Part shown: positions 22,915 to 63,028 of the stretch, piece by piece
Position numbering within the stretch: the first letter of the stretch is position 1
Layout of the letters: each line of letters starts with the position of its first letter
NCBI RefSeq assembly: GCF_964204645.1
Contig: NC_134026.1
Span: 19,998,150-20,062,149 of the forward strand
Reading direction: 5' to 3'
Origin: Tubulanus polymorphus
Lineage: Eukaryota; Animalia; Nemertea
DNA: 64,000 nucleotides
Translations under genes and position numbers: made by a program
The notes under the pieces: generated by a model
What the model was told of the DNA's origin: nothing
What the model saw: the letters and a program-made list of their open reading frames with translations, nothing else
Database searches by the model: none

Positions 22915-43697
<20,783 letters not shown>

Positions 43698-44271: not shown

Positions 44272-44620
44272 CTGGAAATGAAATTCCGACCGGCCAGATT
44301 ATGAGCTCCCGTCGGAAAATAACGGTTTATGTCGGTAAATAATGCGATTTCTGTCGAGACAAAAGAAAGTCGCCGGCATTGCTACAAACTTTTCAATAAC
44401 ATCTTAAACACAAAACACTAAATAATAACATTCGTATGAAAGATCCGCCTTTGATTAACAAAATAAGCTTCACGGGTTTACCGTAGACATATTTTAAGGC
44501 ACATTTAAGAGTTAAAACTTACATATATTTCACGATCGTCGAACAACAGAAGCGTGACGTCACTGTCTGGGAGTTTACCAATACAGATAAATTCAAATGA
44601 AAAGGCTTTGTTCACCAAAA
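44272..44620 (-). promoter_or_regulatory. Putative SMARCA2/4 5' non-coding exons and proximal promoter
   Basis: Minus-strand donors GTAAGT at 44522 and GTAACT at 44271, acceptor TTTGTAG ending at 44382, CpG-richer than introns, CRE palindrome TGACGTCA at about 44555. TSS position is inferred. Confidence 0.5.
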
Positions 44621-44724
44621 TATACAGCACAGCAGCGCGTCGTACGAACGAACGTTTTTTTTTACAATTTATACCCACTCGTTATTTTAATGCAAGTTAA
44701 CTTATAGTTTTAAGCGGTTTCATC

Positions 44725-46178
44725 TGTAGCCGGTACGCGTCCGCGATTTAGTGTCATCCTCTGGTAGCGACCGATAGGTGTCGTGATCTTCAGGTCTCCT
44801 CAATAAGCGTGGCTACAGGGTCCGCCTTGGTCCTGTAGTCCCGGGGAGTGGAACTACAAAGGGGAAATCCTCAGAAAGTTTCCGCCGAAGGGATGGACAG
44901 CTTCAGAGACAAAAAGTTTATAGTTCGTAAAAAAGGAATAGGAGAGAAGGAAGCGAGTGTCAGAGGTAAGTCTTAGCTATTGACCCAATTACACGGACCA
45001 GACAGGACAGGTGTCCGCCATGAGGTCTATCGAGTCAGGGCCCTTGACTCGATGTCGGAACCTCACAGTCACCCGAGCTCCGGCGCATCTTTTCCTCAGG
45101 TCCTCGAGGTGTAACATCATATCGAGTGCCTCCCTGCACGATCTCCTCGTCCTGGCGTAGTATCTTGCCCCCATCTATGTGTCTAAAGACACCCCGACAC
45201 TCGCCACTTCATTAAGAATAAGATTTATAAACCTGGCCTCAAGAAAGTGGATCCTACTTCGTCCAGAAGCCACCCCCCACGACAGTGATAAGTCTTGTAT
45301 TGAATAATATAGAAAATTATTATTTCAGAAACGGATAACTACTGTATAATTTATATACATATTTACATATTGCACGTGAAGTTTTTATCACAATAATTGA
45401 ATTGTACACCTCATTCAAATAAAAAAAAAGGTTAAATAAATTGTTTCAAAATAAATCATAATCTATCTTAGTTATAAATTATTTATAATCTATAAAAGGG
45501 CTAGTGCAAGGATCTCTCCTTCCTTGCAAAAATCCACGATTAATGACTCAATGGTCGCTAAATTTAGGCCCACGAAGACCCAAAATAATGCTCATGCCAT
45601 GGCATAAAAGTAAAAAGGTAAAAGGAAAAAGCCGCCAGGTTGACTATTCCCGATGGATTAAAAATAGGTACATATCGTCGAGTTGACTAACGTCAGAGCC
45701 CGGCCTGACCTGGGTTGCCCCAGGCCAGGAGAGCGCGTGTTATTGTTTACCTCAAATCAATGTGGGTCGAGACGAGAGTGACGTTTGCGCGCGCTGACCC
45801 ATTTTTATAGATTCCGCGCAGTGTGACGTCACCGTGCATGGAGGATGACGTCACACAGCACAAAAACATGGCCGCCGAGCAAAAGCTCCGAGTTTAAAAG
45901 TTTAGACGACTGTACAAATAGTAAATCGGGATCTTACATAGTAGAATAAGGTGAGAGCGAAAAGTGATCAACCTAAAGTTTTGATTATTAAAAGCTGAAA
46001 TTAATTATACTACTATATGCAGAGAAAATGAGGTGCACAGAATGTGAAATGAAAGGGGCGAGCTAATTATCGCCCAAAAACATTCCATTTAAAAAAAATG
46101 AGGAGGGCTCCGTAGCGGAAAAACAAACTATACATTAACGACAACATTTTAAACTATTTAACAGGAATTTCCGCTACA
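44725..46178 (-). repeat. 3' LTR
   Basis: Direct repeat of 52303-53756; preceded on the minus strand by G-rich PPT GGGCTGGTGGGGGGCTG (46195-46179). Confidence 0.96.
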
Positions 46179-46319
46179 CAGCCCCCCACCAGCCCTGAAT
46201 GCCCCATTCAGAACAGGCGACCAAACTACATATAAAAAAAAGGAAAATACATTATCACATAAAATACGTTACATCAACAATATTACATTAACAGTCAGCA
46301 GGACTTCTACGATCACGAA

Positions 46320-47168
46320 CTAGGCGCAAAGTTTTTCGATCATACGGTCTTTCATCTCTTCTTGAATTGTACAAAATTTGCAGTCAAATCGGTCACCGGG
46401 TCGACCCTCAATCGAAATAGTGCCGCCCCACAGTTCATGCCGGTGAATGACACGAATCGGAACTCGCGGATCGCTGGGCGCTGTTGTTGAGTTGTCTAAA
46501 GGAATTAGTTTCCACGCGTCGTTTGCGGTGGGCATATCTGTAGAAACGGAAGATGCGGAATCGGACGGAATCGGAATTTGATTATTAATGGCTACCGGTT
46601 CGACGGGTTTCCTCTTACTTATCAATACAGTTCTTGATACATGGTCTTCGTTCACGGACGGTTTCGTAATTGGAACAGAATCGGCAGGTTCCGGAATGAC
46701 ATCGTCGAGGTCATCGAACAATTTGGCAAATTCGATGTCCATGTCATCCAAGGTTAGTATCGGCATGTCTGCAAAATTTTCTTCATCTTTCGTTGTCGAT
46801 TTTACGGCCGCGGGTGCGGGGTCTGTATTTATTTTCGAGACCGCGCTTTTTAATACCGGTTTCGACTCCGATTCTTCGAGCAGCTTGATTAAGCCTAGGT
46901 ATTTCGATCCATTGTCTTTGAAAATCTTATAGTGTTTGGTTTCTATGTGAGCTTTCACCTCTTCCCGGTCTTCCGCTCCTTCACCGCGCGTCATACATCT
47001 ATAGAACCTCTTAAATATAAATGGAGACGAACCAGCCCGAGATTTGTACGGTGCACAATAAAACTCGAGATGTCTCTTCTTGTTGTAATTGGCAGAAAAT
47101 TTTCGCTTGCAATACTTGCAGTACCAATTTGCGGGTCGTCGGTTCTCTTTCATTGCGTTAGTCTTCAT
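46320..47168 (-). CDS. ORF3 of the Gypsy element: zinc-finger protein with acidic patch, not env-like (about 282 aa from the ATG after the splice acceptor)
   Basis: Open frame between pol and the PPT; WYCKYCKRKFSANYNKKRHLEFYC (C2H2-type spacing ending in Cys), degenerate second finger YRCMTR...KAHIETKH, acidic LTLDDMDIEFAKLFDDLDD, C-terminal H...CKFC; acceptor at 47177. Confidence 0.75.
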   Translation of the reverse strand: MKTNAMKENRRPANWYCKYCKRKFSANYNKKRHLEFYCAPYKSRAGSSPFIFKRFYRCMTRGEGAEDREEVKAHIETKHYKIFKDNGSKYLGLIKLLEESESKPVLKSAVSKINTDPAPAAVKSTTKDEENFADMPILTLDDMDIEFAKLFDDLDDVIPEPADSVPITKPSVNEDHVSRTVLISKRKPVEPVAINNQIPIPSDSASSVSTDMPTANDAWKLIPLDNSTTAPSDPRVPIRVIHRHELWGGTISIEGRPGDRFDCKFCTIQEEMKDRMIEKLCA

Positions 47169-47217
47169 GACTTCAACTGAAAGGAAAGAAAACAGGCCAG
47201 AGATTAGAACAACAGTC

Positions 47218-50200
47218 TCAGTCCCAACCCATGCGTTTGGGTGGGCGAATAGGACGCCCAGTTCTCGTTTGGTACGGTTGACAGTTGAGATTTGGATCGT
47301 CGCTAGGTGAAACATCGTTGCCTCGAGAAAAGACATCATTAGTTACGAGATACTCTTTTAATCGGTCACTATGGACGCATTTCTCCTTCCCGGAGGGAAG
47401 CCTGACACGAAAAATTACATCGTTAAAATTCTCAAGTATGGTACATGGCCCAGACCATAAGCATGATAGCTTTTTCGTTCTACCCGGCATTGTGGAAGGG
47501 GTATACAGCCAGACTCTAGAATCTATCGCAAATGTGTGTGGTTTAGATTTGACATTGTATTGTGTTTTGTTTCTTTCAGCTCGCTTATGAGTTTGTATGC
47601 GGACCTCGTGAAAAGACTCTGATAACCGGTGCTTCATTTCAATAACGTATTGACTGCTGATGACTGGAATTTCGCAGCGAGGACCACCTGTGATAACGTC
47701 AATGGGTAGGTCAATTTCGCGACCCAACATCAATCGGTTTGGGCTAAACCCAGTTGCATCGTGTATCGTCGCCCTGTACGCCATGGTGACGTATGGTAAG
47801 TGTTGGTCCCAGTCCATCTGGTTTTCTTCAACCTTAAAAGACAGACACATTAACAATGTTCGGTTATTACGTTCGATCATTCCATTCGATTGGGGTCGAA
47901 ATGCGGTACTTCTGGTTTTATGGATTTGAAGGAGTTCACACACTTCCGCCATCAATTTGGACTGGAAGTTTCGACCTTGGTCCGAATGTATGATTCTGGG
48001 GACGCCAAATCGAGTAATAAACTCGTCTACGAGTATCCGGGCGCAAGTTACTGCTTCTTGGTTCGGAATTGCGTATGCTTCGATCCACTTCGTAAAATAG
48101 TCACCAATAACTAATATATAGATGTTTCCATCATATGTTTCAGGTAATGGACCCAATATATCCATCGATACTCTCTCCATAGGTTGGCCTACCAGATAGT
48201 TGTTCATGGGTGCTTTTAATCTACTGGAGGACTTCTTTGAAGCGCACTTATCACACCCTCTACAGAAACACTTTACGTCATCACCGATACCGTGCCAAAA
48301 AAAACGATCGTGAACTAAAAAGAGGGTCTTTTTGACACCAAAGTGACCCCCGACTGCAGATGAATGAATATGGTCGAGGACTTGCTTCCTAAACTTTTCA
48401 GGTAAGATTAATAGAGTTGAGTCCGGGTAACCTTCTCTTCTCTTTATAATGTGTAAGAGCCCCTCAATCATTTTCAGATCATTCCAGTGGGTCCAATAAA
48501 ATTTGCAGGCAACACCTTGTGAGGAAACTTGATGCCATCCGGGGCGTTCATCATCTCGGATGTGAGCAAGGACCCATTTCAAGTCTCTTTCTTTCCCCTG
48601 TTCTAGTTTCATATTCTCGAGTGACCACTCTGACGACGGTAAGAACTCGCTGTAGGAATACGGCTTGTCGTTGTGAATTGTCATTTTCTTAACTGCTCGT
48701 TTCCTCACAGATATTGGTGTTTGTTTTTCAGAACAGATTCCTTCAATCCTCTCGCACTGACGACAGGGCATGCGCGATAGAGCATCAGCGTTACCATGGC
48801 TTCGACCCGGTCGGTGTACGATGTCGAACTGGTATGCACTCAGTAGAGATATCCAGCGAGCTACTTGGCCTTCTGGTTCTTTAAACGACATCAGCCACCT
48901 CAAGGATGAATGGTCAGTCCGGATTGTGAATTTCTTGTCGGCAAGGTAATATTTGAACTGTTTTACAAAGGCGACGACAGCTAAAAGCTCCCTGCGGGTC
49001 ACGCAATAATTCCTCTCGGCTTTCGTTAAACAACGGCTAGCACAGGCGATAATTCTCTCCTTGCCCTCTTGAACTTGACTGACGACACCTCCAATTGCGA
49101 ATGCTGACGCATCAGTGTCCAGGATAAACGGTAACCTTGGATCGGGAAAAGCCAGAACTGGTGAGTGAGTCAAAATTGACTTCAGCTCACGGAAAGCTTC
49201 TTCGCATTGGACATCCCATCTGAATTCCCTCCCCTTTTCCGTCAGCCGATGAAGAGGTTTTGCAGTTTCAGCGAACCCTTGGCAAAACGACCGATAGTAT
49301 GATGCTAAACCAAGGAAAGATCGAGTCTCTGTGACGTTTTTAGGAGTGGGCCAATTCTGGATTATTTCGATTTTGCTTTCTGAACATGATATACCATCAG
49401 CGGAGATATGGTGTCCAAGAAAATTGACTGACGTTCTAAACAGCTCACATTTCTTAGGTTTTAGTTTTAGGCCAGCCTGTCGCAGACACTTGAAGACAGT
49501 ACGTAGGTTGGTCATCATCCCAAGGAAACTACCAGCATGAACAATAACGTCGTCCAGGTAAACCAGAGCAATTTCTGGGATAAGACTTCTGAATACCTTT
49601 TCCATTAGCCTTTGAAACGTGGCACCACTATTCTTCAAGCCCATGGGCATCTTACGGAATTGGTATAGGCCTTTCCCGCCCACAACAAAAGCTGTCTTTT
49701 CCTTAGAGTTTTCGTGTACCTTCACCTGCCAGTACCCCGATGCTAGATCAAGGGTGCTGAGGTACTTCACGTCAGCCAGTGATCTGATAGTGTCGTTGAT
49801 AATAGGTAAAGGATAACTATCTGCCTTGGTTACAGCATTAACATCACGATAATCTAAACACAGTCGAATAGTGTTATCCGGCTTACGAACCACGACAATA
49901 CTGCTGCACCACGGACTATCAGATTCTTCAATCACGCGTGCTTTCAGCATGTCATCGACTAACTTATTGACTTCTTCTTGTGTTGCTAGGGGCAACCGCC
50001 GAAAGCGTTGTTTTGTCGGAACAGCGTTACCTACGTCGATGACGTGTGAAGTCTCTGAGGCCTCTCCAAGATCTAAATTAGAGGAGGCGAAAACGTCCGA
50101 AAATTCAGATAGTAGTTGTTTCACATCGTGACATTCATCAGTGGACAGACCTTCGCAACTCCGGTGGTACAAATCTTGTAGAAATTCAGGTAATTGGTCG

Positions 50201-51018
50201 TTTGAATTCGACGTTTTCGATGTACTAGTTTCAGTATATATTTTAGAAATTTGTCCGATTACCCCTAAGGGTGTCCCTTTATGAATGATCTTCGGATGCG
50301 AGCTAAGGTTCACCATACGAACAGGAATATGACTACTATTTATATTAACGACCTCTTTAGCGACGAGTACTTCTGGCCCTAGCCTCCAGTTGTTGCTAGA
50401 TTCTATTAAACCCCATTGTCCAGGTGGTAACGCCGTCTTTACATGACCCGATACCACAACTTCAGAATTCGGAGGTAAGACTAATTTCTCATAGTTACGA
50501 ACGTAGGTAGAGTTCTGTTCGAGATGGCCCGTCGGATTAGAAAAAGCTTGATTCCCCCGGCATGTCACAGTGCCGGTACCCGGGTGGATATGGCAGTCAT
50601 ATGCGACAAGAAAATCCATTCCTAGAATAGCATCATCTGTGATGTCAGCGACTATCACGTCCCACATTATGTTAGAAGAAAAGAGACCCAACGGAACTCT
50701 AGCTGTCCCTGCGACATCCAGGGAGCTATTATCAGCAGTATATAAATTATACTTTGTGTCCCTCAAGGTGAGTTTCTTCTTTTCGCTGATTTCAGAAAAT
50801 AATTTCTTACTCCACACTGTGAAGTGTGCGCCCGTATCTACTAAATACTTCGTGTCACGGCCGAGAATTCTTGCAGACAGATGTATAGATTCAGGTAAAG
50901 CATTCTCATATGAAAGAACCTTGATCTTTCCTGGCTGATTAAATTCGATAGGTAGGTGAGGATGTGTCTGTCCGGGTGTTACCCCTTCCCTCTCAGGAGT
51001 AACGGTATCTAGTTTCCC
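47218..51018 (-). CDS. pol: Pol polyprotein (aspartic protease, reverse transcriptase, RNase H, integrase), -1 frame to gag
   Basis: LVDTGA (PR), LDLASGYWQV / MPMGLKNS / YLDDV (RT), LDTDAS / RRELLA / TDHSSL (RH), HHCC plus D-D-E (SMDILGP, HSDQGRNF, ERNNRTL), GPY/F-like WSGPC module. Confidence 0.96.
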   Translation of the reverse strand, partial: GKLDTVTPEREGVTPGQTHPHLPIEFNQPGKIKVLSYENALPESIHLSARILGRDTKYLVDTGAHFTVWSKKLFSEISEKKKLTLRDTKYNLYTADNSSLDVAGTARVPLGLFSSNIMWDVIVADITDDAILGMDFLVAYDCHIHPGTGTVTCRGNQAFSNPTGHLEQNSTYVRNYEKLVLPPNSEVVVSGHVKTALPPGQWGLIESSNNWRLGPEVLVAKEVVNINSSHIPVRMVNLSSHPKIIHKGTPLGVIGQISKIYTETSTSKTSNSNDQLPEFLQDLYHRSCEGLSTDECHDVKQLLSEFSDVFASSNLDLGEASETSHVIDVGNAVPTKQRFRRLPLATQEEVNKLVDDMLKARVIEESDSPWCSSIVVVRKPDNTIRLCLDYRDVNAVTKADSYPLPIINDTIRSLADVKYLSTLDLASGYWQVKVHENSKEKTAFVVGGKGLYQFRKMPMGLKNSGATFQRLMEKVFRSLIPEIALVYLDDVIVHAGSFLGMMTNLRTVFKCLRQAGLKLKPKKCELFRTSVNFLGHHISADGISCSESKIEIIQNWPTPKNVTETRSFLGLASYYRSFCQGFAETAKPLHRLTEKGREFRWDVQCEEAFRELKSILTHSPVLAFPDPRLPFILDTDASAFAIGGVVSQVQEGKERIIACASRCLTKAERNYCVTRRELLAVVAFVKQFKYYLADKKFTIRTDHSSLRWLMSFKEPEGQVARWISLLSAYQFDIVHRPGRSHGNADALSRMPCRQCERIEGICSEKQTPISVRKRAVKKMTIHNDKPYSYSEFLPSSEWSLENMKLEQGKERDLKWVLAHIRDDERPGWHQVSSQGVACKFYWTHWNDLKMIEGLLHIIKRREGYPDSTLLILPEKFRKQVLDHIHSSAVGGHFGVKKTLFLVHDRFFWHGIGDDVKCFCRGCDKCASKKSSSRLKAPMNNYLVGQPMERVSMDILGPLPETYDGNIYILVIGDYFTKWIEAYAIPNQEAVTCARILVDEFITRFGVPRIIHSDQGRNFQSKLMAEVCELLQIHKTRSTAFRPQSNGMIERNNRTLLMCLSFKVEENQMDWDQHLPYVTMAYRATIHDATGFSPNRLMLGREIDLPIDVITGGPRCEIPVISSQYVIEMKHRLSESFHEVRIQTHKRAERNKTQYNVKSKPHTFAIDSRVWLYTPSTMPGRTKKLSCLWSGPCTILENFNDVIFRVRLPSGKEKCVHSDRLKEYLVTNDVFSRGNDVSPSDDPNLNCQPYQTRTGRPIRPPKRMGWD

Positions 51019-52058
51019 TGCTTCTTTGTGTAACTCGACTTGGATTGTTCCCATGGTCTATTGGGAGCTTGTCTTCGACCTCCGAGGTGGGGACAATTGA
51101 CTCGGATGTGGCCCTGTTGGTCGCAGTTAAAACATCTTCGATTTTCTGCAGAGGTTGGGTTCTGCGTTTTAATAGCCCGGACGTCAGCGGCCAACCGGGT
51201 AACAGCATCCGTCAGTTGTTGGATAGCCCTGGAATCATCAGAGTTCGCGACAGGCGTGGAGGTGACCGCGTTTATTTGCGACCTGACGTTCTCATGGTGT
51301 CGATTATTTTCCATCGCGTGTATGCTCTCTAATTCGAGCGCATAATTTACCAGTGCATCATATGAGCATGTATCCTTCTGATACATCAGAACCCGAGTCT
51401 CGACTTCTGGAAGGGCCTCGATAAAATGGTTCCGACAGAGGCGTTCCCTCTGTTTTGGGGTCAAGTCCGGATAGGCTAATCTTCCCATAGAAATGATCGT
51501 CTGACCAAGTTCCCTCAGCGACTCGCCTCGTTTACGTCGACGAGATCGTAATTCTGCAAGATGAATTTCTGCTCTATGGCTTGGTCCGAATCTACTCTCC
51601 AGAGCTGCACATAATTGAAAATAATTAGTTATTTTATCTCCCATCAGATTGCAAGCTAATTGTCTGGCAGCACCACGTAGATGAGAAAACAGCATATCAG
51701 CTTTAGTTGGCGAGTCCCATCCATTCAGACGAGACACTGTCTCGAACGTTAAAAAGTAATCATTCCACGGTTCATCACCATTGTAACACTCAGGTTTTAT
51801 TTTGCAGGTCAAAATACGGGACACTTGACCCGAAACATCAGTGTGGGAAGATCGAGACCTGTTCACTTCAACAGGTCGAGGAAACTCATCAACGACTGGA
51901 GCATCAGCGGGTCTAGCGGCCCCGGCATCAGGATAGTCTCCAGAACTTCGGTTTACGAGCTCAGCAGGCAACAAAGCTCTGTCTCCTAGGACCAAACTCT
52001 CGGAGCTACGACTCCGCGTCACACTTCGAGACATCCCTCGAGTTTCACGACGACTCAT
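51009..52058 (-). CDS. gag: Gag (capsid-like region plus CCHC zinc knuckle)
   Basis: 349-aa ORF; KPECYNGDEPWNDY...W...LRGAA capsid-like pattern; zinc knuckle CFNCDQQGHIRVNC. Confidence 0.9.
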   Translation of the reverse strand: MSRRETRGMSRSVTRSRSSESLVLGDRALLPAELVNRSSGDYPDAGAARPADAPVVDEFPRPVEVNRSRSSHTDVSGQVSRILTCKIKPECYNGDEPWNDYFLTFETVSRLNGWDSPTKADMLFSHLRGAARQLACNLMGDKITNYFQLCAALESRFGPSHRAEIHLAELRSRRRKRGESLRELGQTIISMGRLAYPDLTPKQRERLCRNHFIEALPEVETRVLMYQKDTCSYDALVNYALELESIHAMENNRHHENVRSQINAVTSTPVANSDDSRAIQQLTDAVTRLAADVRAIKTQNPTSAENRRCFNCDQQGHIRVNCPHLGGRRQAPNRPWEQSKSSYTKKQGN

Positions 52059-52281
52059 AATTGCGTTAATAGTATTTCCGGACTATACGAAAACCTATCG
52101 TATTAGATAAGAGAAACTAGAGTCATTTCACGCGTCACGCAATTTGTATGTATTTTAGTATAACTAACTAATGCGCCTAATGTTTAAGTGTTATTATATA
52201 TGGTAATCACTGTCATGGGAAGGGTAAGAGAACCAAAAAAAAATAGTGAATTTAAAAAAAAAAAGTCTCTGAAAGCAATCC

Positions 52282-52299
52282 ATCCCACCGCTGCCACCA
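52282..52299 (-). other. Primer-binding site complementary to the tRNA-Leu 3' end
   Basis: Minus strand TGGTGGCAGCGGTGGGAT, 3 nt inside the 5' LTR boundary; the plus strand ATCCCACCGCTGCCACCA matches the 3' end (with CCA) of metazoan tRNA-Leu(AAG/TAG) as recalled. Confidence 0.85.
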
Positions 52300-52302
52300 A
52301 TT

Positions 52303-53756
52303 TGTAGCCGGTACGCGTCCGCGATTTAGTGTCATCCTCTGGTAGCGACCGATAGGTGTCGTGATCTTCAGGTCTCCTCAATAAGCGTGGCTACAGGGTC
52401 CGCCTTGGTCCTGTAGTCCCGGGGAGTGGAACTACAAAGGGGAAATCCTCAGAAAGTTTCCGCCGAAGGGATGGACAGCTTCAGAGACAAAAAGTTTATA
52501 GTTCGTAAAAAAGGAATAGGAGAGAAGGAAGCGAGTGTCAGAGGTAAGTCTTAGCTATTGACCCAATTACACGGACCAGACAGGACAGGTGTCCGCCATG
52601 AGGTCTATCGAGTCAGGGCCCTTGACTCGATGTCGGAACCTCACAGTCACCCGAGCTCCGGCGCATCTTTTCCTCAGGTCCTCGAGGTGTAACATCATAT
52701 CGAGTGCCTCCCTGCACGATCTCCTCCTCCTGGCGTAGTATCTTGCCCCCATCTATGTGTCTAAAGACACCCCGACACTCGCCACTTCATTAAGAATAAG
52801 ATTTATAAACCTGGCCTCAAGAAAGTGGATCCTACTTCGTCCAGAAGCCACCCCCCACGACAGTGATAAGTCTTGTATTGAATAATATAGAAAATTATTA
52901 TTTCAGAAACGGATAACTACTGTATAATTTATATACATATTTACATATTGCACGTGAAGTTTTTATCACAATAATTGAATTGTACACCTCATTCAAATAA
53001 AAAAAAAGGTTAAATAAATTGTTTCAAAATAAATCATAATCTATCTTAGTTATAAATTATTTATAATCTATAAAAGGGCTAGTGCAAGGATCTCTCCTTC
53101 CTTGCAAAAATCCACGATTAATGACTCAATGGTCGCTAAATTTAGGCCCACGAAGACCCAAAATAATGCTCATGCCATGGCATAAAAGTAAAAAGGTAAA
53201 AGGAAAAAGCCGCCAGGTTGACTATTCCCGATGGATTAAAAATAGGTACATATCGTCGAGTTGACTAACGTCAGAGCCCGGCCTGACCTGGGTTGCCCCA
53301 GGCCAGGAGAGCGCGTGTTATTGTTTACCTCAAATCAATGTGGGTCGAGACGAGAGTGACGTTTGCGCGCGCTGACCCATTTTTATAGATTCCGCGCAGT
53401 GTGACGTCACCGTGCATGGAGGATGACGTCACACAGCACAAAAACATGGCCGCCGAGCAAAAGCTCCGAGTTTAAAAGTTTAGACGACTGTACAAATAGT
53501 AAATCGGGATCTTACATAGTAGAATAAGGTGAGAGCGAAAAGTGATCAACCTAAAGTTTTGATTATTAAAAGCTGAAATTAATTATACTACTATATGCAG
53601 AGAAAATGAGGTGCACAGAATGTGAAATGAAAGGGGCGAGCTAATTATCGCCCAAAAACATTACAATTAAAAAACATGAGGAGGGCTCCGTAGCGGAAAA
53701 ACAAACTATACATTAACGACAACATTTTAAACTATTTAACAGGAATTTCCGCTACA
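52303..53756 (-). repeat. 5' LTR
   Basis: Direct repeat of 44725-46178 (offset 7578); only 4 mismatches found by eye. Confidence 0.96.
53327..53431 (-). promoter_or_regulatory. LTR core promoter: two CRE palindromes, TATA box, Inr-like site and early splice donor
   Basis: TGACGTCA at 53424-53431 and 53402-53409, TATAAAAA at 53387-53380, TCACTC about 28 nt downstream (53359-53354), GAG|GTAAAC donor at 53328. The same motifs occur in the 3' LTR (45749-45853). Confidence 0.65.
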
Positions 53757-53904
53757 CATCTGTTTACTGTCTGCATAGTGTATGATCATAGAACTATTCT
53801 ATGGTATGATGCACCACGTAAATGAGGATCCACCGGCGTAAAAGCGAGACGGAACCTCTCGGAGCGAACCTACCAGTGCTCACCGAATCAGCATCGGATA
53901 GGGA

Positions 53905-54859
53905 AACAAATAGATTTCCTCGGTTTGACTATACACGAAAATCTGAACTGGAAAAATACACAAGAAAATTTCCCAAATTACTGGTATCATAAACAAAACT
54001 AAAAACATCCTTGACGCACAGAATTTACTTTCTCTTTACTACACCTTAGTCTATCCTCATTTGAACTATGGCTTGTTGGCTTGGGGTCACTCGCCTTATA
54101 ATAAAAAATGCCTCCTAATCCAAAAGAAGATTGTTCGAATAATCACCAACTCTAAGTACACTGCACTCACAGACCCACTTTTTAAAAATCTTGAAATCCT
54201 CAAAATCAATGATGTCCTCATCCTTAAAACCGCACTTTTTATTCAAAACACCATCAAATCTTCACCCCATTACTTTTCTAATTACTTCACCGCGGAAAAC
54301 TTGTCTCCTTTAGTCAACATCAGAAAAAGCATATATTTAGACCACGCATATTCTTTATTTTCAAAACAAACACCGCCAACCCCGCATCAAAATTCACCTC
54401 AAAACATTCTTTCAAACATCTGGCGAAAACTACCTTTTTCCAATGACATCCTACAAACAAGCAAACAAAATTTAAAACGTAAACTCATACCATATCTCAC
54501 CTCCGCCTACAATGATATCCATCAATGTAACAACTCTAATTGTTATAATTGCTCACTCTCCTGAACTCTAGCTTACTCATATAAACTCTCCTGAGATTAT
54601 CAAAAATCATCAACTCTCATTTCCTTCTCCTTTGTTTCTTCATTTCCCTTTCGTTTTTTTCCCTGGGTGCTTGCGACAGCGGCCTAAAGGCTTTGCTTAG
54701 CCCCCACTGAAAGCAACTGTTCTCTCTCTCTCTTTATAATTGTGCTTTTTTTTAAATTGTAAATTTTATTGTTTGTTTTGTCTCAACCTGTGTAGATAGC
54801 CCGTTATGCTTTCTGTGAAATAAATTTGAACTTGAACTTGAACTTGAACTTGAACTTGA
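53905..54859 (+). mobile_element. 5'-truncated LINE (CR1/L2 group-like) 3' end with (GAACTT)n tail
   Basis: Degenerate ORF2 C-terminus FLGLTIHENLNWK...YYTLVYPHLNYGLLAWG...QKKIVRII...TDPLFKNLEILKIND; AATAAA followed by GAACTT repeats at about 54828-54859. Confidence 0.8.
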
Positions 54860-54870
54860 GCTTAGTTCTG

Positions 54871-55072
54871 TACGAAAGCCCCTTGGCTTACGAGATAATC
54901 TTTTCACAATTTCTATGGAAGACCTCAGACGACATTCGAGATATGAGATATAACATATGAGATATTAGTCGAAAGTCGATTTATTAAGTCGAATTTCGAC
55001 TTATGTCGAATTTCGAGATAATAAGTCGAAATTGTGAAAAATGATCTCGTATGTCAACTAGGGGCTTACGTA
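54871..55072. mobile_element. MITE with TACG(A)AAGCCCC termini and 6-bp TSD GTTCTG
   Basis: gttctg|TACGAAAGCCCC...GGGGCTTACGTA|gttctg with extended internal inverted symmetry. Confidence 0.65.
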
Positions 55073-55576
55073 GTTCTGTGGCTCTAAAAAAAACTTTTAT
55101 TGATCAGCTGTGATTAAAGAATAAATTTTCCCTTGTCAGGTGAGTTTTCTGTCACGTTTTTTCTCGCAAGAATTTCGATTTTCCATATTAATGCAAGATT
55201 TCTAGCGCGGAGTGAAATCTCAGCATTTTCTCACAGAAAATAGATTTCATTAGCGTCGGGAGAAAATCTTGATTTTTTCTGAGTGAAAAAAATAGTTAAT
55301 GTCTATGATAATATATCATAATATTCAGTCAATTTTCAACCTACAAAAGCTCAGGATTCTACTGGATTATACAGTCGATTTAAAACTACGAATAATTGCT
55401 CATGAATCAAAATTGCATACTTTCCGTACCGGGTGTGCATTTTGAAGTTCTCTCGATATTCTTCCAGTGCTAGGATATAAAACGTCAACGAAAGTCAACG
55501 AAAACAGGTCAGGATAGCAACCTAGAAAACTCATTCATTGGCGGTGCCACTCTACTCTCCCGACCTCATAGCAAGA

Positions 55577-56710
55577 ATGGATTTTGACGGTGAACTTTAT
55601 TCAAACAATTCCGATTTTCAAAAACAATGTGTTAGAGATATTCTAACGTTGCCCGGGTTTTTTCGACAAAACTGCTATAGGAACGTATTGGATATCGGCT
55701 GTGGTAGCGGTGAGGTCACGAATTTTCTACAAAATAAGATCAACGGAGTTGACCGTATTTTTGCTTTCGATAAGGTAAAAAGGCATAGGCTTATGGTGGG
55801 ATATAACATCTCTTCCCCATGAAACGAGCTTTTTGATTTTGTTTAGATTTTGCGAAAGATTTTGTTTTCGGAAACAATGAACTTGATTATTATTTCAGAG
55901 TGCATCTATGGTTGAATTTGCTCGATCAAAAAATTCGAATCCTAAAATTGAATATTCCGTAGCTGACGTCACCAAACCCGAAACGTTCAAGCCGGAATGG
56001 CAACAGAAATTCGACCTGATAACATCGTTCCACGTTCTACATTGGACTAAGAATCAATACAAAAACTTAGAAAATGTAAAATCTTTGTTATCCCCGAATG
56101 GTGAAGTTTTATTCTATGTGCCGTACACGTCATCGATCATTTACATGTCTGATATAATGAACTCGGTAAAATGGTCTCCGTACTTTCAGGTAAACAACGA
56201 ACCAACATTTCCCACTTCATAAAATGTATTAGGTTTTTCGAGCCCTTTCGACGTTGTTACCGACGAACTGAGAATGTTTCGTGTTTGTAGGGATACACAC
56301 CGTCGTGGTCATTTAATCCCGATTGGGAAGAATATCGTGAATGGAGATATCCCGATGAAATCACCGGATACCGACGAATGGCTGAATCATTAGGTTTCAC
56401 GGTTAACCAATGCACGGAAGATGTTCAAAATTACATTTTCCCTGATCGTCAATCTGCAAAAGGTATATATTTGGAATTCCAAAATAAACTGCGTCATTCA
56501 CAAACAGGCATAGGGTTAACAGTCATCGTCGTATACTTTTTAGGTTTTTTCGGCGCAGTTTTGCTTCATTTGATGCGAATTCCAGACTCAAAATCGTCTG
56601 AATTTTTAGACGACGCGCTGGATCTATATTTGAAAAGTTTACCGCTGAACGAAAATGGAAAGATTCGATTTTATTCAAAACACGTCCTAGTGAATTTGCA
56701 AAACAAATAA
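55577..56710 (+). CDS. Class I SAM-dependent methyltransferase, juvenile hormone acid O-methyltransferase-like, copy 1
   Basis: Exons 55577-55774, 55899-56189, 56291-56462, 56544-56710; motif I VLDIGCGSG, FDKSASMVEFA, YSVADV, FDLITSFHVLHW, LLSPNGE. Confidence 0.85.
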
Positions 56711-57047
56711 AATATGGTGTCAGCATGATATGGAGTTCGGTGTGTGTCCTTAGTCGCAATATAGGACCGCTTGATTTATTTCCTTATCCGACGGATTGTC
56801 CCAATGCGCCGGAAAGTTTGGCATCATTTCCCGAAGTCCACGGCACTGCGAAGAACGATTATTCAGGGCAGATAAGTGGGCCCCGTTTTTATCTTAAAAT
56901 AGGGATTGACCCTATAATTTATTTGATTGGTAGATTTCGTTTGATATTCTGTTTTGGTGTCCCTTACAAACCCACCACACCTGCCGGGAGCGAAACAGGG
57001 GGCTTGATTTGGAAATGGGAAATCGAAGTACCAGAATGTAGTTGATA

Positions 57048-57525
<478 letters not shown>

Positions 57526-58119
57526 TACACGCGGGATGTTAAATTGATATGTCGTTCGTCGAGGTTACATAATTTTTTTTCAAAATCGAAGCACATAATT
57601 GGAAATTTCGGTTCCGGTTCATTCAAACAAACATCCAAGCAGCCTGAACCGGCAAGCGACTGATTGGGTTTTATTTTGTTGGCTGTCTAATTAATACATC
57701 GAGATTTTGGAAGTTACAAGGATTGAAGATCATTTGTCAATTTTTTTATATTTTTGGTCGTTTTCAGCGTGTAAATAGTCCGAAAGTTTATTGTAGCTTT
57801 TTTTTTCTCGGGTATATGTTGATGTAAAAGTCCTCTAACTTGATTTCCCGCGTTTGGCTAGATTAAAAGGAAGCCAATTTCGAAAACGCAAATTATCCAG
57901 CTGAGAGTACGATCCCTGTGTTTTTAGCAAAAAGAGTTTAGGACAAAGTGATATAAAAGCTGGGAATAAATTCCATTGCTTTTGTTGGTTAGAAGGTTAA
58001 CAATAGAAGCGTCTATCTGCGTTACTTTTTGGTGGACAAGATCATTTATCCGAGACGATATCCTATCAAACACTTCGAGCTCTGAATTTCAGCCGGCCAA
58101 TACAATTTCTTAATCGAAG

Positions 58120-58560
58120 CCACCTAATCCATCAGGATTAAAGAACACAGATCAAAGACTTCTGCGATTGGACAACATCTCGCAATTTGTCACACTTGTG
58201 ATCAGGAATTCAGTGATAACAAATTCAAAATTCTAGACAAAGGCTCATCTGATCTCGACTGTAAAATTAGGGAGGCCCTGTTTATTAGGCACAACGACCC
58301 TCTTTAAATCAACAATATTCCAAAACGGCTCATCCTTTATCTTAAATGTATTCAAATAATTAGCTTGTAATTAAATACTTGGTTTGTAATTAGCTTAGAA
58401 GTTCGCACTTGTAATTTTGTAACTTATGTTGTATATAAACCTGTAGTTTAATCATTTGATTCACTTGTATTTCACCTGATGAGGGCATATGATCCCGAAA
58501 GCGTTCGTGTTAATAAACTGTATTTACTCATTAGAAAATGAGGTTTTTAGTGTTATCGCT
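58120..58560 (+). mobile_element. Penelope-like element 3' fragment (GIY-YIG endonuclease C-terminus plus hammerhead motif)
   Basis: RIKEHRSKTSAIGQHL...FKILDKG...KIREALFI...P/LNQQ...GSSFILNVF* (frameshifted), followed by a hammerhead core at 58476. Confidence 0.78.
58473..58509 (+). ncRNA. Minimal type I hammerhead ribozyme motif
   Basis: cac-CTGATGA-ggg(catatgat)ccc-GAAA-gcgt-TC-gtg: intact core, 3-bp helix II, helix I cac/gtg. Confidence 0.7.
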
Positions 58561-58774
58561 TCTATGGTTATTCAGATATCAATATGTTCACACAAGGTCT
58601 ACATTGAGAAAATACGAAGGTCGATTTGAATGCGAAGAGTCTTCTATATAAATCTTTGCCATTCACGAAAACGATAGACTCGATTCAAGAAAAACATGTA
58701 CGCACAGTACCGTACACAATTATATTCTGATAATCAATTTTGTTGATAATCTCAACTCTTCCATCGGCAAAAAT

Positions 58775-60033
58775 ATGGACGCTGACGGTGAGGTTTATTC
58801 AAATAATTCTGATCTGCAAAAACAATTGGCTACAGATATTCTATCGTCAAATGAATTTCAGCAGAATCGTTATAGGAACGTGTTGGACATCGGCTGTGGT
58901 AGCGGTGAGGTCACAAATATTCTACTTGAAAAGATCGATGTAGTTGAAAATCTAATTGCTTTCGACAAGGTAGATATACAAAATGCATACAATAACGGTA
59001 GGTAGTGACTTTTCAACTTCTGATATTCGTCCTTGTTTAATTTCAGAGTGAATCTATGGTTGAATTCGCTCGATCAAAAAATCCGAATCCTAAAATTGAA
59101 TATTCCGTAGCTGACGTCACCAAACCTGAAACGTTCAAGCCGGAATGGCAACAGAAATTTGACCTGATAACATCGTTTCAAACACTACACTGGACTCGTA
59201 ATCAATATAAAAACTTGGAAAATATAAAATCTTTATTATCCCCGAATGGTGAAGTTTTCGTCAATATGCCTCACATTTCATCGTTCGTTCGCGTACTTGA
59301 TATAATGAAAACAGCGAAATGGTCTCCATACTTTCAGGTAGGAATTTGATGGTTCGTTTTAGTGGTGACTCGCATTATAGTCTGTGTTCTAAATACAACG
59401 AGACGGATAGTACTTTTACGGTTAAATCTTATATTTGACGCACGAGCTTACGCTACTTGCGAATAGCATCTTCATCAGCAGGCGGATGAGTCACTCGAAA
59501 GCTATCCGTCTCGTTGTATTTATTCTACACCAGATTAACACGGTTTCTCTGCGAGTCTATATTTTATTCACAGCATCGAAGATTAATCTGAACATTCGTG
59601 AATTTCAGGGATTTACGCCGGCATGGTTATTCCATCCAGATTGGGAAGAATATAGCGAATGGAGATATCCCGATGTACCCACTGGATACCGAAGAATGGC
59701 CGAATCATTAGGGTTTACTCTCAAACGATTTGCAGAGACGAATGATGATTTCATTCTTCCTGGTCGTCAGTGTGCCAAAGGTCTCCTGTTTGATAGGGAA
59801 TTCATATTTAAACCCGCTTCTTGTACTCAGTATATATTCAATATCACCGCGATGGTTCTATCATTCCAGGTTGGTTTAGCGCACTTCTGCCTTTGAAGCG
59901 AATTCCGGACTCAAAATCGTCTGAATTTTTGGACGATGCATTGAATCTATACTTGAAAAGTTTACCACCTGATGTCAATGGAAAGATTCACATTCGTTCC
60001 AAAAATATCATTGCTTATATGCAAATAAAATAA
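58775..60033 (+). CDS. JHAMT-like SAM methyltransferase, copy 2
   Basis: Exons 58775-58969, 59047-59337, 59609-59780, 59870-60033; same exon structure and motifs as copy 1. Confidence 0.85.
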
Positions 60034-60379
60034 ATTACAAAAATATATTGATTACGATTAGTGTATTTCTATTTCGCCAACATGCGTGTCGGAGATTTTT
60101 ATGCACACATAGCCATACATTCTTCCACGCTTATTTCATTCGACGGTGAAAAAGCAAATACGTCTCCACATTTGAAAGGAGATAAAAGTAAAACTCTTTA
60201 TTCGAAATCCATATTTCGTTGTTAATCGATAATCGAAATAAGATGTTATAAATTTCAAGTCCCATACGCCGAAACAAGCCAGATCGGCAATAATGGATTA
60301 ATAAGATAAAACCCACTATCTACAGATTAAAATAATTTAAAAACAAGAATTTATTTATTCAATCTAAAATATATAGAAT

Positions 60380-60422
60380 ACACGACGTTTCGATCTCACC
60401 CTAGAGATCATCGTCAGGTGTG
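60380..60422 (-). ncRNA. Minimal type I hammerhead ribozyme motif inside an inverted-repeat element (about 60300-60511)
   Basis: Minus: acac-CTGACGA-t-gatctc(tagggt)gagatc-GAAA-cg-TC-gtgt; palindromic ACGT at helix III; partial inverted copy at 60423-60449. Confidence 0.78.
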
Positions 60423-60637
60423 CACACCTGACGATGATCTCTAGGGTGAATTAATAAATTCTTGCTTTTAAATTCTTTTAATCTGTAGATAGTGGGTTTT
60501 TATCTTATTATCCGTTCACCACATTTAAGTGTGGTTATCGTTCCAATAATGAACTATTCTGAAAAGTCTGGCCGATTAGACATCAAATGAACAATTTTCC
60601 CGAAAAGAAGAAATACTCTTGACAAATAGTTATTACT

Positions 60638-61032
60638 ATGGTGGCTGATAAGGGCCATAGCGAAAAATTTTTAGTATGTAAATCAGGGCGCCAGAACGCC
60701 AAAACACCAAAACGAAAAAAAAACGTCAAATTTTCTCTGAAATTTCGACGTTTTTCGTTGTTTTGGTGGGGCGCCAAAACGGAATAATCTTTGTTTTAGC
60801 GCGCCAAAACGAACTTTCAGAGAAATTTCGACGTTTTTCGTTGTTTTGGAGGGGGCACCAAAATGAAAGTTCGTTTTGGCGGGAGCGCCAAAACGGAATA
60901 TTCTTTGTTTTGGCGCACCAAAACGAACTTTCAGAGAAAATTGGACGTTTTTCGTAGTTTTGGCTTTCTGTCGTTCTGGCGCCCTGATTTGCGTACCAGA
61001 AATTTTTCGCTATGGCCCTTATCAGCCTCCAT
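60638..61032. mobile_element. Unclassified MITE with about 60-bp TIRs and internal GCCAAAACG subrepeats
   Basis: ggctgataagggccatagcgaaaaattt...cagggcgccagaacg versus cgttctggcgccctg...aaatttttcgctatggcccttatcagcc. Confidence 0.7.
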
Positions 61033-61225
61033 TGAACCTACATTGATAAGAATATCAAGGTCGATTTAAATGCAAGGAAAATTCTAAGAAATAGTTATTT
61101 GTTCACACCACATTTTGATGTGTGACAGTCACGATAATATATAGACTAAATTCAAACACATTTTATACGAGATGTTGATATTCTAGTGCTGTTAATCCCA
61201 CCTCCGACCCAGAAGGACCGGCGAA

Positions 61226-61515
61226 ATGGATGTTGACGGTGAATTTTATTCAAATAATTCTGATCCGCAAAGACAATTGGCCACAGATATTCTATCGTCG
61301 ATTGAATTTCAGCAGAATCGTTATAGGAACGTATTGTACATCGGCTGTGGTAGCGGTGAGGTCACAAATATTCTACTGGAAAAGATCGATGTAGTTGAAA
61401 ATCTTATTGCCTTCGATAAGGTATAGATATATAAAATGTATATACAAATCGTAGGCAGTAACTTGGAAATATATTCTTATCATTCCTGCTCTATTTCAGA
61501 GAGTATCTATGATTG
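61226..61515 (+). pseudogene. Truncated JHAMT-like methyltransferase (copy-2 type)
   Basis: Exon 1 (61226-61420) with motif I altered to VLYIGCGSG; only a few bases of exon 2 remain before copy-1-type upstream sequence restarts at about 61556. Confidence 0.75.
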
Positions 61516-61886
61516 GACCAGGAATTTTATGTAATGGCCCGAATCAGCCACCATAGTCGGGAGAAAATCTTGATTTTTTCTGAGGGAAAAAATATATTTA
61601 ATGTATATGATAATATATCATAATATTCAGTCAATTTTCAACCTACAAAAGCGCAGCATTCTACATACACAGTCCATTTAAAACTACGAATAATTGCTCA
61701 TGAATCAAAATTGCATACTCCAGTACCGGGTGTGCATTTTGAAGTTCTCTCGGTATTCAGTGTTAGAATATAAAAGCTATCCAGACCTGTTTTCAACGAA
61801 AACAGGTCAGGATAGCTATTACATGTACAAAGCAGAAAACTCATTCATTGGTGGTGCCACTCTACTCTCCCGACCTCAAAGCAAGA

Positions 61887-63028
61887 ATGGATTTTGACGG
61901 TGAACTTTATTCAAACAATTCCGATTTTCAAAAACAATGTGTTAGAGATATTCTAACGTTGCCCGGGTTTTTTCGACAAAACTGCTATAGGAACGTATTG
62001 GATATCGGCTGTGGTAGCGGTGAGGTCACGAATTTTCTACAAAATAAGATCAACGGAGTTGACCGTATTTTTGGTTTCGATAAGGTATACATAAAAGGCA
62101 TAGGCTTATGTCGGGATATAACTTCTCTTTCCATGAAACGAGCTTTTTGATTTTGTTTAGATTTGAGAAAGTTTTTGTTTTCGGAAACAATGAACTTGAT
62201 TATTATTTCAGAGTGCATCTATGGTTGAATTTGCTCGATCAAAAAATTCGAATCCTAGAATTGAATATTCCGTAGCTGACGTCACCAAACCCGACACGTT
62301 CAAGCCGGAGTGGCAACAGAAATTCGACCTGATAACATCGTTCCACGTTCTACATTGGACTAAGAATCAATACAAAAACTTAGAAAATGTAAAATCTTTG
62401 TTATCCCCGAATGGTGAAGTTTTATTCTATCTGCCGTACACGTCATCGATCCTTTACATGTCTGATATAATGAACTCGGTAAAATGGTCTCCATACTTTC
62501 AGGTAAACAACGAACGAACATTTTCCACTTTTCATGAAATGTATTAGGTTTTTCGAGCCCTTTCGACGCTGTTACCTACGAACTGAGAATGTTTCGTGTT
62601 TGTAGGGATACACACCGACGTGGTCATTTAATCCCGATTGGGAGGAATATCGTGAATGGAGATATCCCGATGAAATCACCGGTTACCGACGAATGGCTGA
62701 ATCATTAGGTTTCACGGTTAACCAATGCACGGAACATGTTCAAAATTACATTTTCCCTGATCGTCAATCTGCAAAAGGTATATATTTGGAATTCCAAAAT
62801 AAACTCCTGCGTCATTCACAAACGGGCATAGGGTTAACAGTCATCGTCGTATATTTTTTAGGTTTTTTCGGCACAATTTTCCCTCATTCGATGCGAATTC
62901 CAGCCTCAGAATCGTCTGAATTTTTAGACGACGCGCTGGATCTCTATTTGAAAAGTTTACCGCTGAACGAAGATGGAAAGATTCGATTTTATTCAAAACA
63001 CGTCCTAGTGAATTTGCAAAACAAATAA
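61887..63028 (+). CDS. JHAMT-like SAM methyltransferase, copy 4 (near-duplicate of copy 1)
   Basis: Four exons matching copy 1, within a duplicated block about 61556-63277 corresponding to about 55255-56947. Confidence 0.85.

What the first reader, a model, noticed from the sequence alone, without database searches (positions are those of the whole stretch)
46320..47220. Gypsy retrotransposon carries a spliced, env-position ORF that looks like its own transcription factor (zinc finger plus acidic activator patch)
Seen: an intact ORF3 lies between pol and the PPT. It is preceded by a textbook 3' splice site (minus: TTCTAAT branch point, CTGTTTTCTTTCCTTTCAG|, AG at 47178-47177) with ATG 8 nt downstream (47168). 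A donor GAG|GTAAAC lies about 30 nt after the predicted TSS in the 5' LTR (53328). The 282-aa product has no signal peptide or transmembrane stretch. It has a C2H2-spaced finger (CKYC-x12-H-x4-C), a degenerate second finger, an acidic/aromatic patch (LTLDDMDIEFAKLFDDLDDV), a Pro/Ser-rich linker and a C-terminal H...CxxC. Established: env of errantiviruses and retroviruses is expressed from such a spliced subgenomic RNA; complex retroviruses (foamy virus Tas, HTLV Tax) encode LTR trans-activators; acidic-hydrophobic patches typify activation domains such as VP16. Inference: this is a 'complex' LTR retrotransposon encoding a DNA-binding trans-activator, an integration-targeting factor or an anti-silencing protein.
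Basis: partly seen in the sequence, partly recalled or inferred. Interest (0 to 1): 0.85.

Follow-up and report, generated by a model that had tools for sequence, protein, structure and literature searches.

The report
Gypsy retrotransposon's own zinc-finger regulator
A young jumping gene carries, where retroviruses carry their envelope gene, an intact gene for a small zinc-finger protein that is kept by selection and recurs in many related elements; the protein likely binds DNA and likely switches on the element's own promoter, which would make these elements 'complex' like some retroviruses.

Summary
A young Ty3/Gypsy element (LTRs 99.7% identical) has an intact 282-aa ORF3 between pol and the PPT. 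It lies behind the element's most pyrimidine-rich acceptor (1 of 211) and has no membrane segment. ORF3 has no sequence homolog in the databases searched. Among sister-copy contigs 23 of 40 displayed differences are synonymous (29% expected). The second finger is degenerate in this copy but canonical in most sister contigs. New here: C2H2-finger ORFs follow pol in 14 of 31 other loci of the same integrase clade and 0 of 20 outside it. Their fingers share an H-x4-H/C ending, three carry a significant acidic-hydrophobic patch, and two are fused to a TatD nuclease. So this is a lineage-wide accessory gene class, not a one-off capture. The spliced RNA was not seen, and the contigs could hardly show a 29-nt first exon. 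No function was tested. Best reading (0.45): a DNA-binding activator of the element's LTR, which has two perfect CRE sites beside its TATA box. Rivals: anti-silencing factor, CERV/Rev-like RNA export, integration tether. The scan noted zinc-finger ORF3s earlier in fungal and protist Gypsy elements. My ten paper searches found no report of this class.

The parts
52303..53756 (-). 5' LTR (1454 nt, TGTAGC...GCTACA ends)
   Evidence: 4 mismatches to the 3' LTR in 1456 aligned columns; 4-bp target duplication at 53757-53760 and 44721-44724
53402..53431 (.). Two perfect CRE palindromes (TGACGTCA, name recalled) 22 bp apart, directly upstream of the TATA box; candidate ORF3/CREB response region
   Evidence: 0 of 5000 LTR shuffles hold two; function inferred
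53357..53387 (-). TATA box (53387) and initiator-like start (about 53357)
   Evidence: the start is predicted from spacing only
53327..53357 (-). Predicted 29-nt ATG-free first exon and splice donor (GT at 53328-53327)
   Evidence: donor joint 6th of 509; use not shown
52282..52299 (-). Primer-binding site (tRNA-Leu-like; identity recalled)
52210..52211 (-). Second acceptor-like site, between PBS and gag ATG; may give a gag-pol mRNA lacking most of a leader that holds 18 ATGs
   Evidence: inferred
51009..52058 (-). gag (349 aa, one zinc knuckle); GGGAAAC slippery-type heptamer at 51018-51012 before the stop, pol in the -1 frame
47218..51054 (-). pol: protease, RT, RNase H, integrase in Ty3/Gypsy order, intact
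47177..47209 (-). Branch-point-like site, polypyrimidine tract and acceptor AG before ORF3
46320..47168 (-). ORF3, 282 aa, no TM segment, under purifying selection among sister copies
47055..47120 (-). Finger 1 (aa 17-38), C-x2-C-x12-H-x4-C
46932..46997 (-). Finger 2 (aa 58-79): one metal ligand missing in this copy, canonical spacing in most sister-copy contigs
   Evidence: (DUF629 E=6e-4, below cut-off)
46701..46775 (-). Acidic-hydrophobic patch (aa 132-156), predicted activation domain
   Evidence: p=0.003; of 6 displayed differences at aa 133-158, 3 inside the patch and 1 just past it are synonymous
46323..46526 (-). C-terminal segment with His and CxxC; alignable in diverged copies; fold unknown
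   Evidence: best feature score 0.80, a lead only
46179..46195 (-). Polypurine tract
44725..46178 (-). 3' LTR

Best explanation
ORF3 is an intact, selected accessory gene of a young Ty3/Gypsy retrotransposon; it is likely made from a spliced subgenomic RNA and likely encodes a nuclear DNA-binding protein that would activate the element's own LTR promoter. Shown: position inside the element, open frame, excess of synonymous differences among sister copies, two C2H2-type finger motifs, a non-random acidic-hydrophobic patch, and finger-bearing ORFs at the same position across the clade. Inferred: a 29-nt first exon in R joins the acceptor before the ATG (about 0.75). The fingers bind DNA (about 0.7), likely in U3 at or beside the two CRE sites. 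The acidic patch recruits co-activators, giving positive feedback in the manner recalled for foamy-virus Tas and HTLV Tax. Overall about 0.45.
For: Selection: 23 of 40 displayed differences synonymous against 0.286 expected, p=1e-4; aa 1-160 15 of 22, rough dN/dS 0.19. Clade pattern: 14 of 31 in-clade loci against 0 of 20 outside, Fisher p=2.5e-4; 9 of 24 against 0 of 17 after collapsing close tips, p=0.005; no such motif on the antisense strand of the 51 loci. Relatives keep ORF3 open at 30-45% identity to each other. One relative's ORF3 (L088) has 12 homolog clusters, many on Mb-scale contigs. Finger type: window finger 1 best matches ZBTB17 and Zif268; ESM features score 0.92 against several C2H2 clusters, and the top three hits at 0.93-0.94 are unnamed; the L088 model has two beta-beta-alpha fingers at pLDDT about 80 whose best matches are DNA-bound CTCF, Tramtrack, ZBTB fingers (Foldseek E 0.007 at best, Z under 5). 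Window finger 1 and several relatives have Asn and Arg at the base-contacting helix positions 3 and 6 (code recalled). Acidic-hydrophobic patch p<=0.01 in the window ORF3 and in 3 of 13 others. Two CRE sites beside the TATA box. In 5 of 13 relatives the finger lies before any in-frame ATG, which requires an upstream exon or a decayed start.
Against: No junction or spliced-leader loose end in any of five runs laid; the one run with clearly spliced host and antisense joints (X2) has a contig running across the acceptor. Acceptors before relatives' ORF3s are only suggestive (10 of 13 have a YAG within 30 nt; combined p=0.08). The acidic patch is not significant in 10 of 13 relatives. Two relatives fuse the finger to a TatD nuclease, which does not fit a simple activator. 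ORF3s of different sub-lineages share no detectable homology beyond the finger. CRE sites are common promoter elements that host factors can use alone, and most relatives' loci show none (few hold a full LTR). The window protein gave no usable model (pLDDT 35). Only 40 of 148 differences were displayed, chosen by support, and frame-changing indels occur in some diverged contigs. The four loci nearest the window element in the tree lack an ORF3, so it is dispensable.
Confidence: 0.45

Rival explanations
1. Anti-silencing or chromatin factor: the fingers place the protein on the element's DNA and the acidic patch binds or blocks a host silencing or remodelling complex, so it lifts repression and does not recruit the transcription machinery directly.
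For: Same finger and selection evidence. Two relatives carry finger + TatD nuclease (Pfam E 1e-36), so the finger can serve as a targeting module for different effectors. Spliced antisense RNA over gag-pol is abundant in run X2 (depth 60-476 against about 21 for ORF3), consistent with host silencing pressure. Fast turnover of the non-finger parts.
Against: No chromatin-reader or enzyme domain in the window protein. The antisense RNA may simply be read-through or come from another, roughly 90%-identical copy.
Confidence: 0.2
2. Rev/CERV-like post-transcriptional regulator: ORF3 is made from the fully spliced RNA, binds the intron-retaining genomic RNA through its fingers and licenses its export.
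For: Direct precedent in a Gypsy element: CERV of Cer1 (PMC10309623, sections 9 and 15 read). The element has a donor near its start and two acceptor-like sites, so its genomic RNA would retain an intron.
Against: No homolog of any kind was found, so none to CERV. The fingers match DNA-binding C2H2 structures best. Export-signal patterns do lie in the patch, but 98% of shuffles have one too, so they carry no weight.
Confidence: 0.15
3. Integration tether: the fingers read a host DNA motif and the patch binds the element's integrase, steering insertions near promoters.
For: This copy sits about 170 bp from a CRE site and a donor-like site upstream of a QLQ-domain (brahma-like) gene. One insertion only.
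Against: n=1. A separately translated protein would have to reach the particle or the intasome. Known Gypsy targeting modules are recalled to lie within integrase; one relative (L026) has a chromodomain-like stretch at the pol end (read by eye).
Confidence: 0.1
4. Repressor or passenger: the protein dampens the LTR (negative feedback, copy-number control), or ORF3 is a captured host finger fragment kept only weakly.
For: ORF3 is missing from 17 of 31 in-clade loci; this copy tolerates a degenerate finger 2; the linker half shows no significant constraint (8 of 18 synonymous, p=0.10).
Against: Significant constraint on the finger-and-patch half; the shared H-x4-H/C finger ending across lineages; no host gene matched among 5.8 and 1.84 billion proteins.
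Confidence: 0.1

Closest known systems
CERV of C. elegans Cer1 (PMC10309623; abstract, sections 9 and 15 read)
   Same: Ty3/Gypsy element with a regulatory, non-envelope protein from a spliced RNA; nuclear; a possible zinc-binding loop; no homologs outside its lineage.
   Different: CERV is 517 aa, has 5 exons sharing gag frame, a C4-type loop and a G-protein-like domain, and acts on RNA export, not transcription. The ORF3 here lies after pol and has C2H2-type fingers and an acidic patch.
Non-envelope ORF3s of bdelloid rotifer Gypsy-like elements (PMC5408684; passages read)
   Same: Third ORF after pol, family-specific, gained and lost repeatedly, said to be expressed typically from spliced messages; includes nuclease ORF3s.
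   Different: Those are DEDDy exonucleases, GDSL esterases, TM or env proteins; 'finger' occurs 0 times in the main text.
Complex-retrovirus trans-activators: foamy-virus Tas, HTLV-1 Tax (recalled, no paper read)
   Same: Accessory gene at the 3' end, spliced from a donor in R; LTR with CRE sites (Tax); activation region.
   Different: Retroviridae, with env. No sequence match was found; Tas and Tax are not C2H2 tandem-finger proteins (recalled); activity here is untested.
Plant additional ORFs between pol and 3' LTR: Grande gene23, Retand TRP28 (PMC7264820 parts 1-2 of 3 read; PMC11963269 passages)
   Same: Conserved extra ORF between pol and 3' LTR, nuclear or predicted DNA-binding, proposed to be regulatory by analogy with retroviral accessory genes.
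   Different: Antisense, own promoter, plant Tat lineage, no C2H2 finger ('finger' 0 times in PMC11963269).
Errantivirus env (PMC13524379; passages read)
   Same: Same position and, as recalled, the same spliced subgenomic expression.
   Different: No signal peptide, TM segment or fusion protein here. env-like loci among my hits (L024, L079-L081) fall outside the finger-ORF3 clade.

Membership tests
Ty3/Gypsy LTR retrotransposon | Two LTRs with TG...CA ends, target-site duplication, PBS and PPT | tested here: met
Ty3/Gypsy LTR retrotransposon | gag, then pol in the order protease-RT-RNase H-integrase | tested here: met
A named Gypsy clade (412/mdg1, Cigr-1, MolGy1/2 etc.) | Grouping with reference elements in an RT/IN tree | not testable with these tools
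   No reference set was held; several database relatives are merely labelled 'transposon 412'; nearest pol is an unnamed protein at 61%
Errantivirus / env-bearing element | ORF3 with signal peptide and TM segment, a fusion glycoprotein | tested here: not met
   max hydropathy 0.51; no env family
Classical C2H2 zinc-finger protein | C-x2-4-C-x12-H-x3-5-H/C spacing | tested here: met
   finger 1 in this copy; finger 2 in most sister contigs but not in this copy
Classical C2H2 zinc-finger protein | Score above Pfam's curated cut-off | tested here: not met
   12.6 bits against 27; relatives' fingers also fall below cut-off
Classical C2H2 zinc-finger protein | Beta-beta-alpha fold | tested here: inconclusive
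   window model pLDDT 35; a relative's fingers fold so
Tas/Tax-type LTR trans-activator (works-like claim) | Expressed from a spliced or internal-promoter subgenomic RNA | tested here: inconclusive
   sites present; junction not seen
Tas/Tax-type LTR trans-activator (works-like claim) | Binds or is recruited to U3 and raises LTR transcription | not testable with these tools
   needs reporter, ChIP or EMSA
Tas/Tax-type LTR trans-activator (works-like claim) | Activation domain | tested here: inconclusive
   composition fits, p=0.003; activity untested
CERV/Rev-type export factor | Sequence homology to CERV or Rev | tested here: not met
   no homolog at all; no direct pairwise comparison was run
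CERV/Rev-type export factor | Export signal and binding to a structured element in genomic RNA | tested here: inconclusive
   pattern present but in 98% of shuffles; RNA element not tested

The most novel reading that the evidence does not exclude
A large lineage of invertebrate Gypsy retrotransposons has evolved its own class of accessory genes: spliced, env-position C2H2-finger proteins with an H-x4-H/C signature and swappable effector parts (acidic activation patch, TatD nuclease, unknown alpha-beta domain). They act as element-encoded transcription factors for their own LTRs, making these 'complex' retrotransposons that arrived at the Tas/Tax strategy independently of retroviruses.
Probability: 0.4. 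Interest if true: 0.82.

Novelty: new variant of a known kind. Interest (0 to 1): 0.64.

Why it matters
Apart from env and CERV, animal Gypsy elements are mostly treated as gag-pol only, with host factors driving the LTR. A lineage-wide finger-protein ORF3 would mean many such elements carry their own regulator, a direct parallel to complex retroviruses. It is testable with a reporter and a GAL4 fusion. It would also explain a set of orphan 'hypothetical' finger proteins in invertebrate genome annotations, and give a possible source of host zinc-finger genes and of trans effects on host promoters. The finger-TatD fusions point to a further, enzymatic branch.

Tried and rejected
Whole genome: none held, so no copy census. 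Homolog searches with window ORF3 gave only itself: 5.8-billion word search at 155-494 aa, 1.84-billion HMMER search, viral and metagenome contigs. Integrase alone found nothing in viral contigs. Single-sequence fold unusable. ESM search of the C-terminal part: nothing above 0.80. L088 C-terminal domain: no fold match above Z 5; it was not folded alone. An apparent likeness between the C-termini of window ORF3 and the L088 family was not supported: hhalign aligned only finger 2, probability 10%. Export-signal reading of the patch dropped as chance. Expression: no RNA holder listed; X5 gave no contig; X2 behaves as RNA by its GT..AG joints, but no sense junction was among the 15 of 46 joints shown or the 3 joints and 15 loose ends. 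A 29-nt first exon is shorter than the 30-letter overlap of such contigs and may be pruned (inference), so this blank is not evidence of absence. Rows changed by hand before the 14-of-31 count: automatic count was 13 of 26 in clade and 3 of 25 outside; I dropped L006 (motif beyond the PPT), L040 and L041 (next element's gag region or chance), added L101 (shorter finger missed by the pattern), placed L037 in the tree and re-rooted. The figures typed (14/32, 0/19) were miscounted and are replaced. No complex prediction was run. Paper searches found no report of C2H2-finger or TatD ORF3s in animal Gypsy elements. Two surveys of mollusc and annelid LTR clades have 0 hits for 'ORF' and 'finger' (PMC6238403, PMC8556966; passages); PMC8220671 has 0 for 'finger'. 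Repbase, GyDB entries, subscription papers and supplements were not seen and may describe such ORFs.
Full report
The element. The minus strand holds a complete LTR retrotransposon at 53756-44725. The LTRs are 1454 nt with 4 mismatches in 1456 aligned columns, flanked by a 4-bp duplication, with a PBS and a PPT. gag (349 aa) and pol (1278 aa; protease, RT, RNase H, integrase) are intact and in Ty3/Gypsy order, with a slippery-type heptamer at the gag end. The nearest pol found is an unnamed protein at 61% identity; the rest are about 40-44%, and the named ones come mostly from spiders, plus a pseudoscorpion, a sea star, an anemone and a clam. The host is therefore likely an invertebrate animal; no whole genome was held.

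The observation. The acceptor is the most pyrimidine-rich of 211 YAG sites on the sense strand (p=0.003). The donor is moderate, joint 6th of 509. TATA and an initiator-like site predict a 29-nt first exon without ATG, so the ORF3 ATG would be the first in a spliced RNA, whereas the unspliced leader holds 18 ATGs. A 339-aa frame from an ATG inside the pol end is an alternative. The database holds the 282-aa form as a single-member cluster.

Is it a gene? No homolog turned up in four searches. Contigs of runs X1, X3 and X4 hold diverged sister copies. Of the 40 differences displayed (148 in all), 23 are synonymous against 0.286 expected from the transition mix, p=1e-4. For aa 1-160 it is 15 of 22; for aa 161-283, 8 of 18, not significant. 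Indels cluster on both sides of the acidic patch and in the linker, and some diverged contigs carry frame-changing ones. The 'degenerate' second finger is a feature of this copy: the ligand position differs in all overlapping depth of X1 and X4, in 117 of 207 of X3 and in none of X2, and the other state gives canonical spacing.

Is it spliced? Not shown. No run was on record as RNA. X2 behaves as RNA, with a GT..AG joint in the neighbouring methyltransferase gene. It shows no sense junction, and one of its contigs runs across the acceptor. A 29-nt first exon may be invisible in 31-mer contigs (inference), so the test is weak. Indirect support: in 5 of 13 relatives the finger precedes any in-frame ATG, but acceptors before relatives' ORF3s reach only p=0.08 combined.

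The wider pattern. A pol alignment fetched 106 loci: 78 from metagenome contigs (the best 80 of 582 matches, from 6 of 64 parts scanned), 7 viral, 21 from MAG contigs. Fifty-one have the integrase end and 600 nt or more downstream. The automatic scan found a C2H2 motif in a long sense frame in 13 of 26 in-clade and 3 of 25 outside loci, and in none on the antisense strand. After the hand edits listed under Tried and rejected, the count is 14 of 31 in the integrase clade that holds the window element (FastTree support 0.953) and 0 of 20 outside, p=2.5e-4; collapsed, 9 of 24 against 0 of 17, p=0.005. Kinship makes these p-values optimistic. In L011, L019, L048 and L100 a PPT follows the ORF, placing it inside the element. 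Almost every finger ends H-x4-H or H-x4-C, whereas host arrays are recalled to be mostly H-x3-H, which suggests one origin. Beyond the finger the ORF3s of different sub-lineages are unrelated. Within sub-lineages they stay open at 30-45% identity. L100 and L101 add a TatD DNase domain (E 1e-36). L088's ORF3 has 12 homolog clusters whose genomic context I could not check. Its model shows two fingers (pLDDT about 80), a disordered middle and a helix-plus-three-strand C-terminal domain; the fingers match DNA-bound CTCF, Tramtrack and ZBTB structures weakly. Seventeen in-clade loci, including the four nearest the window element, show no finger ORF3, so it is gained or lost repeatedly.

How it likely works. 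Window finger 1 best matches ZBTB17 and Zif268 fingers and has Asn and Arg at the helix positions recalled to contact bases, as do several relatives. The acidic-hydrophobic patch is non-random (p=0.003), and a similar patch reaches p<=0.01 in 3 of 13 relatives. U3 has two perfect CRE palindromes 22 bp apart against the TATA box, found in 0 of 5000 shuffles. Fingers, a disordered linker and an acidic patch are the usual anatomy of an activator (established knowledge). The simplest beneficiary of an activator kept by a transposon is its own LTR, hence the best explanation at 0.45. All functional steps are inference. Anti-silencing (0.2) is favoured by the TatD fusions and the antisense RNA. CERV-like export (0.15) has a real Gypsy precedent (PMC10309623), but the export-signal pattern here is chance-level. 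A tether (0.1) rests on one insertion near a likely promoter.

Comparison and novelty. It is a Ty3/Gypsy element, not an errantivirus. Extra ORFs after pol are known in rotifers (PMC5408684, passages) and plants (PMC7264820; PMC11963269, passages), and a regulatory spliced protein is known in Cer1. Ten full-text searches found no report of C2H2-finger or TatD ORF3s in animal Gypsy elements; Repbase, closed papers and supplements were not seen. This scan earlier noted finger-bearing ORF3s in fungal and protist Gypsy elements, unchecked here, and nothing similar in sequence or in this genome. Verdict: a real, selected accessory gene that belongs to an apparently undescribed, lineage-wide class; a new variant of a known kind, with function predicted and untested.

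Noticed in passing
window 47794-51805, + strand: Run X2 shows four GT..AG joints antisense to gag-pol (47794-48143, 48637-48731, 49555-49988, 50186-51805; depth 60-476), at good splice sites; the main contig is about 90% identical, so partly from another copy. Possible silencing precursor or read-through.
   Followed up: partly
window 53526-55466, + strand (same donor also near 45948 in the 3' LTR): X2 joins an antisense donor in the LTR to the first coding exon of the neighbouring methyltransferase gene (depth 228, close to 251 for that gene's next intron; 28 letters on the LTR side). The LTR may supply a first exon or promoter to a host gene; which LTR is not resolved.
   Followed up: partly
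window 44500-44724: The element is inserted about 170 bp from a CRE site and a donor-like site upstream of a QLQ-domain (brahma/SMARCA2-4-like) gene on the same strand.
   Followed up: partly
L100:6876-9674, L101:6941-9370: Gypsy ORF3s of 800-930 aa with a finger motif, a helical region and a C-terminal TatD DNase domain, 42% identical over 604 aa, each with a YAG one base before the ATG; my TatD paper search found nothing relevant in its listing.
   Followed up: partly
L019:1730-1830 and 2960-3100: A short motif repeated several times in U3 recurs just upstream of the finger ORF3, like an internal promoter sharing sites with the LTR (read by eye).
   Followed up: no
window 52211 and 53357-52059: An acceptor-like site lies between PBS and gag; the unspliced leader has 18 ATGs and the LTR has no AATAAA on the sense strand.
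   Followed up: partly
L086-L106: Contigs filed in prokaryote MAGs hold eukaryotic Gypsy elements, likely host contamination.
   Followed up: no
L024:5539-10589; L026; L018; L064: Other extras after pol: an env-like ORF followed by an ankyrin-repeat-like ORF (L024), a chromodomain-like stretch (L026), unexplained long ORFs (L018, L064) (read by eye).
   Followed up: no
window 55300-63200: Three tandem methyltransferase paralogs about 3.15 kb apart.
   Followed up: no
window 3995-4158, 10507-12143, 26253-26696, 33736-37084: A dispersed family of short repeats with inverted ends, MITE-like, and a 54-bp near-perfect hairpin at 33736-33871.
   Followed up: no
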